IMG/VR virus record: IMGVR_UViG_3300036940_000232
Source of the DNA: a virus
DNA length: 64,000 bases
Direction: 5' to 3' (one strand)
Below, one piece after another: positions 37,549-52,353 of this stretch (position 1 is its first letter; every line of letters begins with the position of its first letter). The notes below the pieces were generated by a model. It had not been told where the DNA came from. It did not search any database and saw only the letters and a program-made list of their open reading frames with translations. Made by a program: the position numbers and the translations under genes.

Positions 37549-37678
37549 GTGCCGGTAGCTCAGTCAGGCAGAGCGCTAAAATTTCCGTATACGCCTGTTC
37601 AAACCAAACGGTTTGTGTAGTACACGGTTACTTCGTCTTGTAAACGAGAGGTCAGTGGTTCAAATCCACTCCGGCACG
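37549..37678 (+). ncRNA. tRNA-Thr(TGT)-like RNA with a Y-like stem inserted in the anticodon arm
   Basis: Intact acceptor, D and T arms; CT-TGT-AA loop kept; about 55-nt hairpin insert carrying TGTAG-N7-TTACTTC. Confidence 0.8.
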
Positions 37679-37681
37679 TTA

Positions 37682-37753
37682 GAGGTGTGTGCAGAATGCG
37701 GTTACTTCAGAAATGGTTTGAAATGCACAACCGCATTCGTCTATTCACACCTC
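37682..37753 (+). ncRNA. Y-like hairpin RNA 1
   Basis: Two stems with an internal loop; TGCAG-N7-TTACTTC. Confidence 0.75.
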
Positions 37754-37760
37754 GTAGCAT

Positions 37761-37896
37761 GTGGGAATAGCTCAACAGGCAGAGCGTCAGCACCAATAAA
37801 GCCCGCTATCGCCAATTGAAAGCGTAAGCTTTCCGTAGATTGCGGATACTTCATGAACCGAGCTGAAGGTTAGCAGTTCGAGTCTGCTTTCCCACT
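37761..37896 (+). ncRNA. tRNA-scaffold RNA with a Y-like stem replacing the anticodon loop
   Basis: GTGGGAA/TTCCCAC acceptor, D and T arms, TCAGC/GCTGA stem; CGTAG-N7-ATACTTC. Confidence 0.8.
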
Positions 37897-37899
37897 TAC

Positions 37900-37971
37900 G
37901 CAGTGTGTAGCGAGCAGATACTTCAATGATATGCAGATATGACAACCGTTCTGCTTGCGTCGATTCACTGC
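37900..37971 (+). ncRNA. Y-like hairpin RNA 2
   Basis: TGTAG-N7-ATACTTC with a complementary 3' strand. Confidence 0.75.
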
Positions 37972-38010
37972 TAATACGAACACAAATAGAAGCATATAAA
38001 GAATAAACCA

Positions 38011-38084
38011 TTGGGAGTGTGTAGGTGACGGTTACTTCATTGAAACTGAAACCGATAACACCGTCATCGCTTGTTCACTCCCAA
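38011..38084 (+). ncRNA. Y-like hairpin RNA 3
   Basis: TGTAG-N7-TTACTTC; TTGGGAGTG/CACTCCCAA closing stem. Confidence 0.75.
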
Positions 38085-38096
38085 TACCAATCATTT

Positions 38097-38225
38097 GCGG
38101 AGGTTGCCCAGCCAGGCAAGGCGCCAGCATAATAGTGCGCTCTCGCCTTTCCCATGTTTTGCATGGTGTAGATAGCGCTTACTTCAGGGAGCTGGATTTC
38201 GGCGGTTCAAATCCGCCCCTCTGCA
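38097..38225 (+). ncRNA. tRNA-scaffold RNA with a Y-like stem replacing the anticodon loop
   Basis: GCGGAGG/CCTCTGC acceptor, CCAGC/GCTGG stem; TGTAG-N7-TTACTTC. Confidence 0.8.
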
Positions 38226-39641: not shown

Positions 39642-39912
39642 GGTATGCAGCCGAACATTTCAAATATTGGACATCTACGCCGGATGAAGTAGGCGATGAC
39701 ACAAAGAAACAAATGGTTGTTTGAAACCAATCGATCCGTGAGGATAAAGAACCTAAAAGTTCAAAGTTCAAAGGATAAAGTTTAAGTTTCAAATTTCAGA
39801 GCAACCAAAGTTTAAGTGTTAAGATTTAGGATTCAAGATTCATTAAATCCTAGAGCAATGTTTATAATAGTTTCCAATGACTAGGAAATGTACACTAGGC
39901 TGGCTGTATGCC
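39642..39912 (+). ncRNA. Structured RNA with 11-bp closing stem and repetitive A/U-rich interior
   Basis: GGTATGCAGCC pairs with GGCTGTATGCC; interior AAAGTTCAAAG-type repeats. Confidence 0.6.
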
Positions 39913-39924
39913 AACCTTCATTAT

Positions 39925-40116
39925 GGATAGGTAGCAAAGCTTGGCCCATGCAATATGATCGCGAGGCGGTTGGTATCTATGGCGCACATGATACCCATGC
40001 GAGTATATGGATTTTGAAAGCTAACGACTGCATGCGTTAGTGAGTACCATATGCTAGTGTGTTATTCAAGATGCATGCAGCATTTTGCGGCAGTTCAAAT
40101 CTGCCCCTATCCACCA
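39925..40116 (+). ncRNA. Oversized tRNA-like RNA (192 nt, encoded CCA)
   Basis: GGATAGG/CCTATCC acceptor plus A-CCA; D and T arms; large structured insert; anticodon unclear. Confidence 0.7.
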
Positions 40117-40125
40117 ATCAACGAC

Positions 40126-40187
40126 TCCGAGACCATGACGAGGGCACAGTAATAGCGCTGTGAGTCGGTTAAATTCCGGCCTCGGAA
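40126..40187 (+). ncRNA. Minimal degenerate tRNA-like element
   Basis: TCCGAG/CTCGGA, CACAG/CTGTG and GTCGG-TTAAATT-CCGGC stems. Confidence 0.4.
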
Positions 40188-40192
40188 ACCGT

Positions 40193-40265
40193 GCTCGTAT
40201 AGCTCAAGTAGTAGAGCGAGGCACTTGTAATGCCTAGGTTCCGGATGCAATTTCCGGTACGAGCT
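40193..40265 (+). tRNA. tRNA-Thr(TGT)
   Basis: Cloverleaf; T-loop TGCAATT. Confidence 0.9.
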
Positions 40266-40404
40266 TAAATAACAAGAGGTGAATCTGAATGAAGATGATG
40301 ACCGAGCTTGAGATTTATTAACGAAGATTAATAAGATTTATATAAAATAATAAGATCAATAGGTTTGCCGGCGCCCTTAATTCGCCGGAATCTAAATACA
40401 TTGT

Positions 40405-40574
40405 GCTCACGTAGCATTATAAGGCAAATGCAAGTGCATAATTGGATAATTGTTCGACATGATAAAGTTGCGGCCGCAACAAAAGTGCAGCGAGATTATT
40501 CATGGCACTGTCACCGTAGGATTTGCTAGCAAGATTCTACGATGCGAAGGTTCGATTCCTTTCCGTGAGCACCA
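40405..40574 (+). ncRNA. Oversized tRNA-like RNA (170 nt, encoded CCA)
   Basis: GCTCACG/CGTGAGC plus A-CCA; AGTGC/GCACT stem with an expanded loop; long variable arm. Confidence 0.7.
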
Positions 40575-40582
40575 AATCATTT

Positions 40583-40655
40583 GGGGATATCTCATAGCGG
40601 CTATTGTCTTCGGCTCCAGACCGGATGCTCGTCGGTTCGAGTCCGACTATTCCCA
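40583..40655 (+). tRNA. tRNA-Trp(CCA), intronless
   Basis: CT-CCA-GA loop; cloverleaf. Confidence 0.85.
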
Positions 40656-40702
40656 CATCAATATGTACTCGTATCAGAATTGGTATATGAGCTCGGCTGT
40701 TA

Positions 40703-41102
40703 AATTAGGTGAAATAATGTTTAGTGATTTAAAAAATTCGAAAAGGCAAGGTAATGTAGGAATTGGACATGCAATTGCTTACTTTACTACACAAGGTTAT
40801 ACAGTTAGTATTCCATTAACAGATAGTCAGGAATATGATTTAATTGTTGATATTAATGGAGAACTAAAGACTATCCAAGTCAAAACCACACAATCAATAG
40901 ATAAAAGTGGAGCATACCGAGTTGAATTAAGAACAATCACAAAATATTTAACTACAACAACAGAGAAGAAACCACTCTCTAAAGTAGATTTCCTATTTGT
41001 TTTAACAGAAACAAGTAATACGTATTTAATTCCTGGTAATTTAGTAGAGGGCAAATCTGGTATTTGCTTAGGCGCTAAATATAATACGTACCTAGTATAG
41101 TA
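40703..41102 (+). mobile_element. Endonuclease-encoding archaeal-type tRNA intron
   Basis: BHB boundaries enclose a complete ORF with its own AGGTGA RBS. Confidence 0.85.
40717..41100 (+). CDS. Intron-encoded PD-(D/E)XK endonuclease (PDDEXK_5/I-Ssp6803I-like), 127 aa
   Basis: K.QG..G...AIAYF, YDLIVD and IQVKT; true start is ATG 40717, not 40450. Confidence 0.9.
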   Translation: MFSDLKNSKRQGNVGIGHAIAYFTTQGYTVSIPLTDSQEYDLIVDINGELKTIQVKTTQSIDKSGAYRVELRTITKYLTTTTEKKPLSKVDFLFVLTETSNTYLIPGNLVEGKSGICLGAKYNTYLV

Positions 41103-41234
41103 CCCGAGTATTTGGAGGTTCGAGCCCTCCCGAGTACGTATGCATCCACGGATGCAGAATTTTGGCCAAGACCGCTGCTTATGGCGGTATATAAACTTAC
41201 TGCAGTATAGATGCGGTTACATAAGCTCAATTGA

Positions 41235-42244: not shown

Positions 42245-42316
42245 TGCCGGCTTAGTGTAGTGGCTATCATATGGGTTTTCATCCCGGTAACCTGGGTTCA
42301 AATCCCAGCGGCACCA
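42245..42316 (+). tRNA. tRNA-Glu(TTC), irregular acceptor stem, encoded CCA
   Basis: TT-TTC-AT loop; T arm intact; acceptor has a bulge. Confidence 0.7.
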
Positions 42317-43352: not shown

Positions 43353-43438
43353 GTGGACGTTAGTGTAATCCGGAAGCACGCTCAAGCGCAGGATACCATG
43401 TATACCGGAGTAGTTCCGTTCAAATCGGAGCGTCCACA
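43353..43438 (+). ncRNA. tRNA-like RNA with aberrant anticodon arm
   Basis: Acceptor, D and T arms intact; anticodon arm expanded. Confidence 0.6.
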
Positions 43439-46949: not shown

Positions 46950-47021
46950 GTGGCTGAAGCAGAATAGCGATGCGTCGGGTTGTGATCCCGGAGGTAGCGG
47001 TTGCAAATACCGCCAGCCACC
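46950..47021 (+). tRNA. tRNA-His(GTG)
   Basis: Cloverleaf; C73; T-loop TGCAAAT. Confidence 0.85.
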
Positions 47022-50799: not shown

Positions 50800-52353
50800 T
50801 TGGGTAAATTTAATAAAAAAGCAACATTAGAACAGTCAATGGCTAGGCATCCAGATGCAATAGTCAATCATGAAGGTGCCCTTGCGTATTCGATGTCTGA
50901 AAAGACAAAGCTGATGACCATTGCAGTTACGTGTCTGATTGGTGAATCAAAATTCTATGAGTCACCAGGCGCAGCAGATGCTAACCTCAGCAATGCAGTC
51001 GATGCAGTCCTTCGAACAGATCCAGAATTTGTATTAAAGTTAGCAGCTTTCTGCAGAAATCAGATGTATCTTAGATCACTTCCGATTTACCTGCTTGTGA
51101 AGTATGCAAACTATACCGGCCCACGAGTAGAAGTTCCCAATGCATCAGCATATGTGCCACAGATCGTAAGGCGCGCTGATGAACTGACAGAAGTAGTAGC
51201 AGCTCAGATGAACATGTATCCTAAAAAACGCAGGAAGTCTGGCGGAGTTCAGCTCCCAAGGATACTTAAAAACGGACTTGCTGAAGCTCTCAATAACTTC
51301 TCAGAATATAATCTCGCTAAGTATGACAGACCTGGCGATGTGAAAATCAAGGACGTTCTGTTCCTGACACATCCAAAACCAAAAGATGCAGCTCAGCAGG
51401 AAATCTTCGACAAGATTGCAGCAGGTATGCTTGACACACCTGAAACTTGGGAAGTCCTGTTGTCAGATTGGCAGTCAAAGTTCCCATCCAAGAGGGATGC
51501 ATGGATATATATCATTGATAATGTATTCAACAAAGATGGAAAGGTCAACAACTACATGGCGATGTTGAGGAACCTGAACAATATTCTGGAAGAAGATGTT
51601 CCTCCAAAATATATAGACAAAGTAGCAGAGATGTTACAGGATCCACAAGCGGTAAAGGCTTCAAAGCAATTCCCATACAGGTTCTTATCTGCATACAACA
51701 CAATCAAGTTTGCAAACAGAAGCAGAACAGAAGTAGATAAACTTAAGTCTGCTATTGAAAGAGCGCTCGATATTTCTGTCGAGAATGTTCCACAGTTACC
51801 AGGCAGCACACTTGTACTGATTGATGTATCTAGCTCAATGCAGGGTTGTACAGTCAGTAGGAAATCCGTTGTGAGATGTGCAGACATCGCATGTGTTTTC
51901 GGTGTAATGACTCCAAGAATCGTTGAGAAACTTCCAACAGTAGTTGCATTCGGAACTGATTACAGACAGATTCAGATTGCAGACAGCGACAGAATGCTTG
52001 AGACAGCCAATAAGATAATGAACCTTTCAATTGGTATGGGCACAAATCTTGCAGGCCCGCTTCAAGAAGTAACTAGAAAAGGTATTGTCTATGACAGAAT
52101 AATTATTTTGTCAGATATGCAGTGCCACAGGTACGGAGCGGAAGCGCTTGAGCAGTATCGCAGACAGGTCAATCCTAATGCATACATTTATTCTGTAGAC
52201 CTCTACGGATATGGAAGTGCATTGATGCCAGAAAATTCAAAGAATCTATGCCTAATGGGTGGATACAGTGATAAGATATTCAACTTCATCACTTCATTCG
52301 AAGCAAACCCAGCCACCATGGTTGAAAGGGTGGATGCATGGACGACGAACTGA
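50800..52353 (+). CDS. Ro60/Rsr RNA-binding protein (TROVE + vWA)
   Basis: N.EG..AY, R...YLRS.P, L.KY, TWE, Y.AMLRNL, QFPYRF.SAY and vWA DVSSSM...SDMQ; TTG start with AGGAGG RBS. Confidence 0.95.
   Translation: MGKFNKKATLEQSMARHPDAIVNHEGALAYSMSEKTKLMTIAVTCLIGESKFYESPGAADANLSNAVDAVLRTDPEFVLKLAAFCRNQMYLRSLPIYLLVKYANYTGPRVEVPNASAYVPQIVRRADELTEVVAAQMNMYPKKRRKSGGVQLPRILKNGLAEALNNFSEYNLAKYDRPGDVKIKDVLFLTHPKPKDAAQQEIFDKIAAGMLDTPETWEVLLSDWQSKFPSKRDAWIYIIDNVFNKDGKVNNYMAMLRNLNNILEEDVPPKYIDKVAEMLQDPQAVKASKQFPYRFLSAYNTIKFANRSRTEVDKLKSAIERALDISVENVPQLPGSTLVLIDVSSSMQGCTVSRKSVVRCADIACVFGVMTPRIVEKLPTVVAFGTDYRQIQIADSDRMLETANKIMNLSIGMGTNLAGPLQEVTRKGIVYDRIIILSDMQCHRYGAEALEQYRRQVNPNAYIYSVDLYGYGSALMPENSKNLCLMGGYSDKIFNFITSFEANPATMVERVDAWTTN

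What the first reader, a model, noticed from the sequence alone, without database searches (positions are those of the whole stretch)
39925..40574. Two oversized tRNA-like RNAs with encoded CCA
39925-40116 (192 nt) and 40405-40574 (170 nt) have perfect acceptor stems with A-CCA, GCA/TGC D stems and T arms. Both also have multi-hairpin anticodon regions and very long variable arms. No 7-nt anticodon loop or canonical BHB could be drawn. Inference: a second class of tRNA mimics that may be chargeable but non-decoding.
Basis: partly seen in the sequence, partly recalled or inferred. Interest (0 to 1): 0.6.

Follow-up and report, generated by a model that had tools for sequence, protein, structure and literature searches.

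The report
Oversized tRNA-shaped RNAs in archaeal virus
A tailed virus that probably infects methane-producing archaea carries two genes for RNAs that keep the ends and elbow of a tRNA but have a large folded domain where the anticodon loop should be, so they look like non-decoding tRNA mimics of unknown job, not tRNAs with ordinary introns.

Summary
Both elements are real and sit at the stated coordinates. E1 (39925-40116) and E2 (40405-40574) each have a 7-bp Watson-Crick acceptor stem, A73-CCA, a D arm with GG and a T arm. A scan for this combination finds only these two in 64 kb and none in 100 shuffles.

- **Not ordinary tRNAs.** ARAGORN and the Rfam tRNA model do not call them.
- **No intron motif.** Neither has a bulge-helix-bulge motif, although the same scanner recovers the neighbouring tRNA-Asn intron.
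- **Supernumerary.** Ordinary tRNAs for all 20 amino acids are already present.

E1 is a conserved structured RNA. A virus whose neighbouring protein is 54% identical carries a 193-nt homologue (CM 60.8 bits). It shows 12-15 compensatory pairs across the tRNA helices and the insert helices, plus a conserved loop-loop or pseudoknot pairing. That homologue lacks CCA, and some strains have lost E1.

E2 is invariant in all strains seen and has no homologue. Its body resembles a tRNA-Asn that sits at the syntenic site in the relative. Its T stem carries an extra U.

Neither matches the six-member Y-RNA-like family upstream. My best reading is tRNA-scaffolded, non-decoding RNAs. Charging and function are untested. 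The scan noted a related oddity on other DNA, a phage tRNA-Asn with an unexplained insert.

The parts
39861..39868 (+). TATA-box-like TTTATAAT 64 nt upstream of E1. It would head an E1 plus tRNA-Thr transcription unit.
   Evidence: Only 28 such motifs lie on the + strand of the 64 kb. Within 120 nt upstream of the RNA genes listed, they occur before T1, E1, E2 and, at -119, tRNA-Ser (GCU). The promoter role is inferred.
39925..40116 (+). E1: a 192-nt tRNA-shaped RNA gene ending in A-CCA.
   Evidence: CM R1 gives 255.9 bits on itself and 60.8 bits on the homologue L170:4093-4288. The sequence is identical in L163-L169.
39925..39951 (+). E1 acceptor 5' strand (39925-31), U8-A9, and D arm (39934-51, loop AAGCUUGGCCCA).
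   Evidence: for coordinates. The acceptor has 2 compensatory pairs and the D stem has 1, compared with L170.
39953..39957 (+). E1 5' strand of the anticodon-stem equivalent (AUAUG). Its partner is either 40058-62 or 40081-85.
   Evidence: Manual comparison with L170 and my reading. The placement of the 3' strand is ambiguous.
39958..39970 (+). E1 hairpin D: AUCG-CGAGG-CGGU. It lies within the conserved string AUGAYCGCGARG(A)CGGUUG.
   Evidence: helix 3 is 100% paired.
39972..39995 (+). E1 hairpin A, with a conserved GCGC at its apex.
   Evidence: helix 4 has 2 compensatory pairs.
40002..40055 (+). E1 stem B (40002-10 with 40047-55). It encloses GAAAG, hairpin C (40021-40) and UGAGUA (40041-46).
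   Evidence: Stem B has 3-4 compensatory pairs and hairpin C has 1. GAAAG and AGUGAGUA are conserved in L170.
40028..40035 (+). Loop of hairpin C (CUGCAUGC). It is complementary to 40073-40080.
   Evidence: Read from the sequence. L170 has CUGCAA with UUGCAG, which gives one compensatory pair.
40067..40087 (+). E1 variable-arm-like hairpin just 5' of the T arm. Its loop AUGCA pairs with loop C as a kissing loop. Alternatively, 40073-80 forms an H-type pseudoknot.
   Evidence: The MFE folds of E1 and of the L170 homologue both place a hairpin here. This is inferred.
40089..40116 (+). E1 T arm (40089-105), acceptor 3' strand (40106-12), A73 and CCA.
   Evidence: The T stem has 3 compensatory pairs.
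40337..40344 (+). TATA-box-like TTTATATA 68 nt upstream of E2.
   Evidence: The promoter role is inferred.
40405..40574 (+). E2: a 170-nt tRNA-shaped RNA gene ending in A-CCA.
   Evidence: It is identical in L163 and L171 and lies within the 100%-identical matches to L164, L166 and L167. Relatives' contigs over 40273-40608 show 0-1 differences. CM R3 finds no homologue.
40405..40431 (+). E2 acceptor 5' strand and D arm (GCAU-UAUAAGGCAA-AUGC).
40433..40509 (+). E2 anticodon-stem equivalent AGUGC/GCACU. It encloses a 5x2 internal loop and a 60-nt irregular hairpin (40443-40502, apex GUUGC-GGCC-GCAAC).
   Evidence: the MFE fold equals the centroid fold. Rests on a single sequence only.
40515..40541 (+). 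E2 long variable-arm hairpin (about a 10-bp stem with a 7-nt loop).
40546..40574 (+). E2 T arm with one extra nucleotide, acceptor 3' strand, A73 and CCA.
   Evidence: The CM alignment to the relative's tRNA-Asn shows a one-column gap in the T stem.

Best explanation
E1 and E2 are expressed viral genes for tRNA-scaffolded, non-decoding structured RNAs.

- **What is kept.** Each keeps the parts of a tRNA that processing enzymes read: the acceptor/T minihelix, the D/T elbow and a 3' NCCA.
- **How the ends would be made (inferred).** RNase P and 3'-end or CCA enzymes, including the virus's own CCA-adding enzyme, would cut them out of the E1-tRNA-Thr and E2-tRNA-Trp transcripts and stabilise them.
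- **What replaces the anticodon loop.** In E1 it is a roughly 100-125-nt four-helix domain locked by a loop-loop or pseudoknot contact. In E2 it is a 60-nt irregular hairpin plus a long variable-arm hairpin.
- **Where the function lies (inferred).** The inserted domain is the working part, binding a protein or ligand. The tRNA part either delivers that domain to tRNA-binding partners or occupies those partners as a decoy, within the virus's RNA-repair and counter-defence repertoire.

Shown here: anatomy, conservation and covariation of E1, absence of a BHB motif, and distinctness from the T/H family. Inferred: expression, processing and function.
For: - **The tRNA ends are far beyond chance.** Two hits in the window against 0 in 100 shuffles.
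- **All 20 amino acids are already served.** Ordinary tRNAs cover them, including Glu at 42246 and His at 46950, so E1 and E2 are extra.
- **No anticodon loop and no BHB**, with a positive control.
- **E1 has a homologue.** L170:4093-4288 scores 60.8 bits, E 5.5e-17. It is identical in three more metagenome contigs, with a partial hit in a fourth that is cut by the contig end.
- **E1 covaries.** On the model-fitted alignment 94.9% of cells pair. Twelve pairs changed on both sides, against 6.0+-1.7 in shuffles (0/500) and 1-2 when the partners are slid. My manual table gives 15 compensatory pairs of 50, including insert helices and the loop C contact.
- **The conserved region is not coding.** A 1-nt indel lies inside the conserved string.
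- **Promoter-like boxes.** TATA-like boxes precede E1 and E2, but not the tRNAs that follow them.
- **E2's T stem has an extra nucleotide** relative to the tRNA-Asn it most resembles. This fits release from elongator-tRNA constraints.
- **The virus encodes Ro60 and a class II CCA-adding enzyme**.
Against: - There is no RNA evidence at all.
- E1's structure rests on only two distinct sequences and a structure-fitted or manual alignment.
- E2 has no comparative support. It could be a scarred tRNA gene.
- E1 is truncated after nt 31 and replaced by 134 unrelated nt in strains L171, L172 and X23, so it is dispensable.
- CCA is not conserved in the E1 homologue.
- No partner or ligand is identified. 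Rfam finds no family for the inserts.
Confidence: 0.5

Rival explanations
1. They are precursor tRNAs with unconventional (non-BHB) introns, comparable to the 'enigmatic introns' of Lak megaphage tRNAs. They would be spliced to decoding tRNAs by an unknown route, perhaps using the viral RNA ligase.
For: - The virus does use introns, as in tRNA-Asn at 40703-41102.
I did not check it.
- Phage tRNAs with unexplained inserts are on record (PMC6784885), and I saw nested tRNA-in-tRNA genes in distant relatives.
- Removing 39955-40075 from E1 would leave the loop AUUGCAG (anticodon UGC).
Against: - There is no BHB at any junction.
- The putative E1 loop is not reproduced in the L170 homologue.
- In E2, every single excision leaves U37, and the T stem has an extra nucleotide.
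- All 20 amino acids are already covered.
- E1's insert is under structural selection of its own, unlike a passive intron.
Confidence: 0.12
2. They are further partner RNAs of the viral Ro60 protein (50800-52353). That would make them non-permuted Y-RNA analogues whose insert binds Ro60 and whose tRNA part binds an effector.
For: - Ro60 (TROVE + vWA) is encoded on the same strand.
- Bacterial YrlA RNAs combine a Ro60 site with a tRNA-like module and can receive CCA (PMC4201824).
- E1's T arm and acceptor are most similar to T3 of the upstream family.
- E1 and T3 share a UAG-N-UUAYUUCA-like stretch.
- There are near matches to GNCGAAN0-1G in E1 hairpin D: CGCGAAG in L170 and CGCGAGG in E1.
Against: - The model of the T/H module does not hit E1 or E2 with filters off.
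- The order is D arm before T arm with open ends, not the YrlA permutation.
- The genes lie 10.2-10.9 kb from Ro60, not within 4 kb.
- The motif matches are inexact and short.
Confidence: 0.15
3. They are decaying or insertion-scarred tRNA genes with no function of their own. This applies mainly to E2.
For: - E2 has no homologue.
- Its body resembles the tRNA-Asn at the syntenic site of the relative, but with an indel in the T stem.
- E1 is lost in some strains.
- The region is a recombination and mobile-element hot spot, with HNH and PD-(D/E)XK endonucleases and IS605 in L171.
Against: - E1's insert helices covary.
- E2 is invariant in every strain sampled, while flanking DNA differs by about 1%. 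The test is weak.
- Both keep perfect acceptor stems, CCA and their own TATA-like boxes.
- Both fold more stably than shuffles.
Confidence: 0.15

Closest known systems
YrlA (tRNA-like bacterial and phage Y RNAs; Chen et al. 2014, PMC4201824)
   Same: A small RNA that joins a tRNA-like module (D arm, T arm, acceptor stem) to a second, non-tRNA module. It is encoded in genomes with Ro60 and is a substrate of tRNA enzymes.
   Different: - YrlA is circularly permuted: the T arm comes before the D arm, the acceptor is closed by a loop, and the ends lie in the Ro60-binding stem.
- It carries GNCGAAN0-1G.
- It lies within 4 kb of rsr.
- E1 and E2 have normal tRNA order and free NCCA ends, lack an exact motif, and lie more than 10 kb from Ro60.
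T1-T3/H1-H3 family of the same virus (37549-38225)
   Same: T1-T3 are also tRNA bodies with a 50-60-nt insert in or next to the anticodon arm. E1's T arm and acceptor resemble T3's.
   Different: - The T/H module (NUCGCC ... UGUAG ... UUACUUCA) is not detected in E1 or E2 by its covariance model.
- T1-T3 lack CCA and long variable arms.
'Enigmatic introns' of Lak megaphage tRNAs (Devoto et al. 2019, PMC6784885)
   Same: Virus-encoded tRNA genes interrupted in the anticodon region by conserved inserts that have no known splicing signal.
   Different: Lak inserts, and the nested tRNA-in-tRNA genes I saw in loci L003, L016 and L086, leave a normal anticodon loop when removed. E1 and E2 do not. 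The host here is probably archaeal.
tmRNA
   Same: A tRNA-like acceptor/T domain with CCA, joined to a pseudoknotted body. It is charged but does not decode by an anticodon.
   Different: - E1 and E2 have no G3-U70.
- They have no conserved tag frame; the only frame in E1 is broken by a 1-nt indel in the homologue.
- They have a full D stem and are half the size.
- ARAGORN's tmRNA search is negative.
- From my own knowledge, tmRNA is unknown in archaea.
Archaeal multi-intron tRNAs with BHB introns
   Same: An archaeal-virus setting. The neighbouring tRNA-Asn has a textbook hBHBh' intron.
   Different: No BHB at any junction of E1 or E2.
tRNA-scaffolded viral or cellular small RNAs (MHV68 TMERs, mascRNA; from my own knowledge)
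   Same: A tRNA-like fold used to recruit RNase P/Z and CCA addition for a non-decoding RNA.
   Different: Those are eukaryotic. Their tRNA-like unit is a separate 5' module, not a scaffold with a domain inserted in the anticodon arm.

Membership tests
Canonical elongator tRNA | 7-bp acceptor stem, D arm with G18G19, T arm with UUCRANY | tested here: met
   E2's T stem carries one extra nucleotide.
Canonical elongator tRNA | 5-bp anticodon stem closing a 7-nt loop with U33 and a purine at 37 | tested here: not met
   E1 encloses about 100-125 nt and E2 encloses 67 nt. All 7-nt loops obtainable from E2 by one excision have U37.
Canonical elongator tRNA | Detected by ARAGORN, or by Rfam RF00005 at its gathering score | tested here: not met
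   No call by ARAGORN in default mode. No RF00005 hit even at E<=10. ARAGORN with introns forces Thr(agt) and Asp(gtc) with poor stems.
Archaeal BHB-intron pre-tRNA | hBHBh' (3-nt bulge, 4-bp helix, 3-nt bulge) at the exon-intron junctions | tested here: not met
   The scanner recovers the Asn intron 40703-41102. For E1 it gives only a weak candidate (40045-40068, h' 2 bp) that clashes with the conserved hairpin C. For E2 it gives nothing. No position is shared with L170.
YrlA / bacterial Y RNA | Permuted order (T arm, closed acceptor stem-loop, D arm) with termini in the Ro60-binding stem | tested here: not met
   E1 and E2 have D before T and open acceptor ends. The definition comes from PMC4201824.
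YrlA / bacterial Y RNA | GNCGAAN0-1G motif near the 5' end | tested here: not met
   Only near matches: E1 CGCGAGG, L170 CGCGAAG, E2 GUUCGAC.
YrlA / bacterial Y RNA | Encoded within about 4 kb of Ro60 on the same strand | tested here: not met
   Same strand, but 10.2-10.9 kb upstream of 50800.
YrlA / bacterial Y RNA | Bound by Ro60 | not testable with these tools
   Needs a pull-down or gel shift.
T/H family of this virus | Module matched by covariance model R2 (T1-T3 plus L170 copies) | tested here: not met
   With filters off, known members score 43-62 bits and H copies 17-24. E1 and E2 are absent at E<=10.
tmRNA | G3-U70 alanine identity, a resume codon with a tag frame, and detection by ARAGORN | tested here: not met
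   The pairs are A3-U70 (E1) and U3-A70 (E2). The frame is not conserved. ARAGORN finds no tmRNA.
Group I intron in tRNA | Match to Rfam Intron_gpI; size of about 200 nt or more | tested here: not met
   No hit at E<=10. The inserts are about 64-125 nt.
E1 family (proposed here) | Homologue with the same helices kept by compensatory change | tested here: met
   L170:4093-4288 and identical copies in L201-L203. Only two distinct sequences are known.

The most novel reading that the evidence does not exclude
E1 and E2 are aminoacylated in the host. All three known sequences combine A73 with a long variable arm. From memory, this is the archaeal leucine identity set, which does not need the anticodon. 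They would then act as charged, non-decoding tRNA mimics. Examples would be a synthetase or elongation-factor sponge, or an aminoacyl donor. This would be a virus-made functional cousin of tmRNA in a domain of life that has none.
Probability: 0.1. Interest if true: 0.85.

Novelty: new variant of a known kind. Interest (0 to 1): 0.55.

Why it matters
tRNA mimicry by small RNAs is known from bacterial Y RNAs, tmRNA and some eukaryotic viral RNAs. A natural tRNA scaffold with normal ends, whose anticodon loop is replaced by a conserved pseudoknotted domain, has not to my knowledge been described. I also know of none for archaeal viruses.

Together with the six T/H RNAs, this virus devotes at least eight genes to tRNA-shaped non-tRNAs. 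They sit beside Ro60, a CCA-adding enzyme and an RNA ligase. That points to an unexplored layer of virus-host conflict around tRNA handling.

E1 also gives a compact new RNA fold, about 120 nt with a loop-loop contact, that is ready for structure probing.

Tried and rejected
- **Sequencing runs:** no RNA holder listed, so expression could not be examined.
- **Read laying:** its table of variant letters was cut off before E1 and E2. Only piece-level difference counts were usable.
- **Nearest held virus record G001:** no match to the region.
- **INPHARED phages:** no match.
- **Exact 28-nt E1 pattern in IMG/VR:** none.
- **Degenerate conserved E1 pattern:** 26 loci, all chance.
- **Relatives of the neighbouring 211-aa protein in IMG/VR and metagenomes:** at most 40% identical and without E1 or E2. 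That protein is a phrog 'tail fiber' family and not RNA-related.
- **Ro60 as a query for related viral loci:** nothing.
- **The 191-aa ORF upstream of E2 in L171:** only near-identical relatives.
- **BLAST and nhmmer of E1, E2 and the spacers against all loci:** nothing beyond T-arm words.

Ideas dropped:
- **C/D-box sRNA:** no D box.
- **K-turn or sarcin-ricin motif at GAAAG/UGAGUA:** the strand spacing does not fit in both sequences.
- **5S-like or known ribozyme or riboswitch:** no Rfam hit.
- **Small ORF in E1:** the frame is not conserved.
- **tRNA-Sec or tRNA-Pyl:** the arm geometry does not fit.

Full report
**Setting.** The window is part of a tailed virus. It encodes a large terminase, a portal, a tape measure and baseplate J.
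- It carries a + strand tRNA cluster from 38.7 to 49.4 kb.
- The same strand carries Ro60 (TROVE + vWA, 50800-52353), NAMPT and a class II CCA-adding enzyme.
- Homing-type endonuclease genes lie among the tRNAs.

An archaeal host is likely, for four reasons.
- tRNA-Asn (40665-41138) has a 400-nt intron with a textbook bulge-helix-bulge motif.
- TATA-box-like motifs precede the RNA units.
- One source names a neighbouring gene in a sister strain as an archaellin family protein.
- The DNA occurs in oil-field, digester, wastewater and subsurface metagenomes.

Earlier notes of this scan reached the same view of the host. I did not test the host directly.

E1 (39925-40116) and E2 (40405-40574) have perfect 7-bp acceptor stems, A73-CCA, D arms with GG and T arms.
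- A scanner for this combination at 100-300 nt finds these two and nothing else in the window. It finds none in 100 shuffles.
- Both fold better than shuffled controls, with z = -3.7 and -3.0.
- ARAGORN does not call them.
- The Rfam tRNA model does not call them either, even at E<=10.

**They are not needed as tRNAs.** ARAGORN tRNAs. The weak Rfam hits at 42246 (Glu, UUC) and 46950 (His, GUG) add two more. Counting the intron-bearing Asn as well, ordinary tRNAs cover all 20 amino acids.

**They are not BHB-spliced.** My scanner recovers the Asn intron (h 6 bp, h' 8 bp).
- In E1 the only notable candidate is 40045-40068. It has a 2-bp inner helix and uses a pairing that conflicts with a conserved hairpin.
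- E2 has no candidate.
- No BHB position is shared between E1 and its homologue.
- For E2, every way of joining the flanks of the AGUGC/GCACU stem into a 7-nt loop leaves U at position 37.

**E1 is a conserved structured RNA.** The neighbouring 211-aa protein has one moderately distant relative, P0002 at 54% identity.
- Its contig (L170) carries a 193-nt tRNA-shaped element at the equivalent place.
- A covariance model made from E1 and my structure scores that element at 60.8 bits, E 5.5e-17.
- The same sequence occurs in three more metagenome contigs, with a partial copy in a fourth that is cut by the contig end.
- No other member turned up in about 1.7 Mb of related loci.

The model-fitted alignment supports the structure.
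- 94.9% of cells pair.
- Twelve of 40 pairs changed on both sides, against 6.0+-1.7 in shuffles (0/500) and 1-2 when partners are slid.
- My manual alignment corrects hairpin C and adds two further contacts. It gives 27 unchanged, 5 one-sided, 15 compensatory and 3 broken pairs of 50.

The caveats are that there are only two distinct sequences and that both alignments lean on the structure.

**Anatomy of E1.** After the D arm comes a short helix in the place of the anticodon stem. Then follow:
- hairpin D, inside the conserved AUGAYCGCGARG(A)CGGUUG;
- hairpin A;
- the 9-10-bp stem B, which encloses GAAAG, hairpin C and UGAGUA;
- a 3' segment that both MFE folds draw as a hairpin right before the T arm, like a class II variable arm.

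The loop of hairpin C (CUGCAUG; CUGCAA in L170) is complementary to that 3' segment (AUGCAG; UUGCAG), with one compensatory change. This could be a kissing loop or an H-type pseudoknot, and I cannot tell which. The placement of the 3' strand of the anticodon-stem equivalent is ambiguous for the same reason. A 1-nt indel inside the conserved string excludes a conserved reading frame. Rfam has no family for the insert.

**Limits on E1.**
- The homologue ends in A-UCA, so the encoded CCA is not a conserved feature.
- In strains L171, L172 and the population in run X23, E1 stops after nt 31. It is replaced by 134 unrelated bases up to tRNA-Thr. E1 is therefore accessory.

**E2 stands alone.**
- It is identical in every strain recovered. 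Relatives' contigs over 40273-40608 show 0-1 differences, while the preceding 1.27 kb shows 11-20. This is only weak evidence of constraint.
- No homologue was found by BLAST, nhmmer or its own covariance model.
- Its acceptor, D and T parts are most similar to a normal tRNA-Asn(GUU). That tRNA occupies the corresponding place in the L170 lineage.
- The likely origin is therefore a tRNA gene whose anticodon loop and variable region were rebuilt.
- Whether the 60-nt hairpin and the variable-arm hairpin are functional cannot be decided from one sequence.

**Relation to the upstream family.** Three more oversized tRNA-likes (T1-T3) alternate with three 70-nt hairpins (H1-H3) at 37549-38225. They share a module.
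- An earlier follow-up read them as Y RNAs. I did not test that.
- A model of the module scores known copies at 43-62 bits and the permuted H copies at 17-24. It does not report E1 or E2 with filters off.
- E1's T arm and acceptor resemble T3's, so the scaffolds may be paralogous, but the inserts are different.
- E1 and E2 do not hit each other's models.

**Reading.** The simplest account is that the virus uses tRNA bodies as scaffolds. They supply precise end formation and stability, and they carry a different working domain in place of the anticodon loop.
- TATA-like boxes sit 64 and 68 nt upstream of E1 and E2, but not before the tRNAs that follow. This fits E1-Thr and E2-Trp transcripts cut by RNase P.
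- What the domains bind is unknown.
- Ro60 partnership, decoy action on tRNA-directed host factors, and charging (A73 plus a long variable arm) all remain open.
- I rank Ro60 partnership and charging as rival or novel readings with low to moderate odds.

**Comparison with what is known.**
- YrlA RNAs combine a tRNA-like module with a Ro60 site, but they are permuted, carry GNCGAAN0-1G and lie within 4 kb of rsr. E1 and E2 fail all three tests.
- Lak megaphage tRNAs have unexplained inserts, one of which is itself a tRNA. I saw the same nested arrangement in distant relatives. Those inserts leave a normal anticodon loop, and these do not.
- tmRNA shares the idea of a charged, non-decoding tRNA-like RNA with pseudoknots. 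It shares none of the defining features.

I therefore file E1 as a new family within the known kind 'tRNA-like non-coding RNAs', and E2 as a probable second, unsupported one.

Noticed in passing
window 37549-38225: An array of three oversized tRNA-likes (T1 37549-37678, T2 37761-37896, T3 38097-38225) alternating with three ~70-nt hairpins (H1-H3). All share a module (NUCGCC ... UGUAG ... UUACUUCA) that is circularly permuted between the two forms. T1 keeps a canonical anticodon arm: UGU here, but GCU in the L170 copy.
   Followed up: partly
window 43353-43438: An 86-nt tRNA-like gene with a perfect acceptor stem and T arm but no recognisable anticodon arm. It ends in A-UCA. ARAGORN and Rfam do not call it.
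   Followed up: no
window 40657-41233: The whole tRNA-Asn gene, with its endonuclease-bearing intron, is absent from four related populations and from L171. There, 13 other bases stand in its place.
   Followed up: partly
L171:7523-7655 (and L172, run X23): A 134-nt replacement of most of E1. It folds into several hairpins and ends in a T-loop-like GUUCAAAUC. It can close on itself through UGGCCCA/UGGGCCA, using E1's D loop. Its nature is unknown.
   Followed up: partly
L171:10620-12152: An IS605-type pair (Y1 transposase and a TnpB/Cas12f-like gene) is inserted in the tRNA cluster of a sister strain, next to an HNH endonuclease gene.
   Followed up: no
L003:8270-8421, L016:9426-9576, L021:10125-10275, L086:2268-2428, L009:7323-7470: Distantly related phages carry tRNA genes with encoded CCA. 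Their anticodon loop is split after position 36 by a ~75-nt insert that is itself tRNA-shaped and ends in NCCA. In L016 the insert is a complete tRNA-Asn. Removing the insert restores loops such as CUUUUAA and CUUAUAA. This is the same kind of insert reported for Lak megaphages.
   Followed up: partly
L170:9078-9128: A further copy of the T-family module (49 bits) lies far from the main array in the related virus.
   Followed up: no
L170:4292-4365: The tRNA-Thr next to the E1 homologue looks degenerate. Its 5' half no longer pairs with the 3' acceptor strand, and ARAGORN does not call it.
   Followed up: no
window 39735-39860: An A/T-rich intergenic stretch of imperfect short repeats (AAAGTTCAAAGTTCAAAGG, AAGTTTAAGTTTCAAATTTCAG, AAGTTTAAGTG ...) lies between the 211-aa gene and E1.
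   Followed up: no
window 42246-42313: tRNA-Glu(UUC) is only 68 nt and scores just above the Rfam threshold (32.4 bits). Apart from E1 and E2, it is the only RNA gene here followed by CCA.
   Followed up: no
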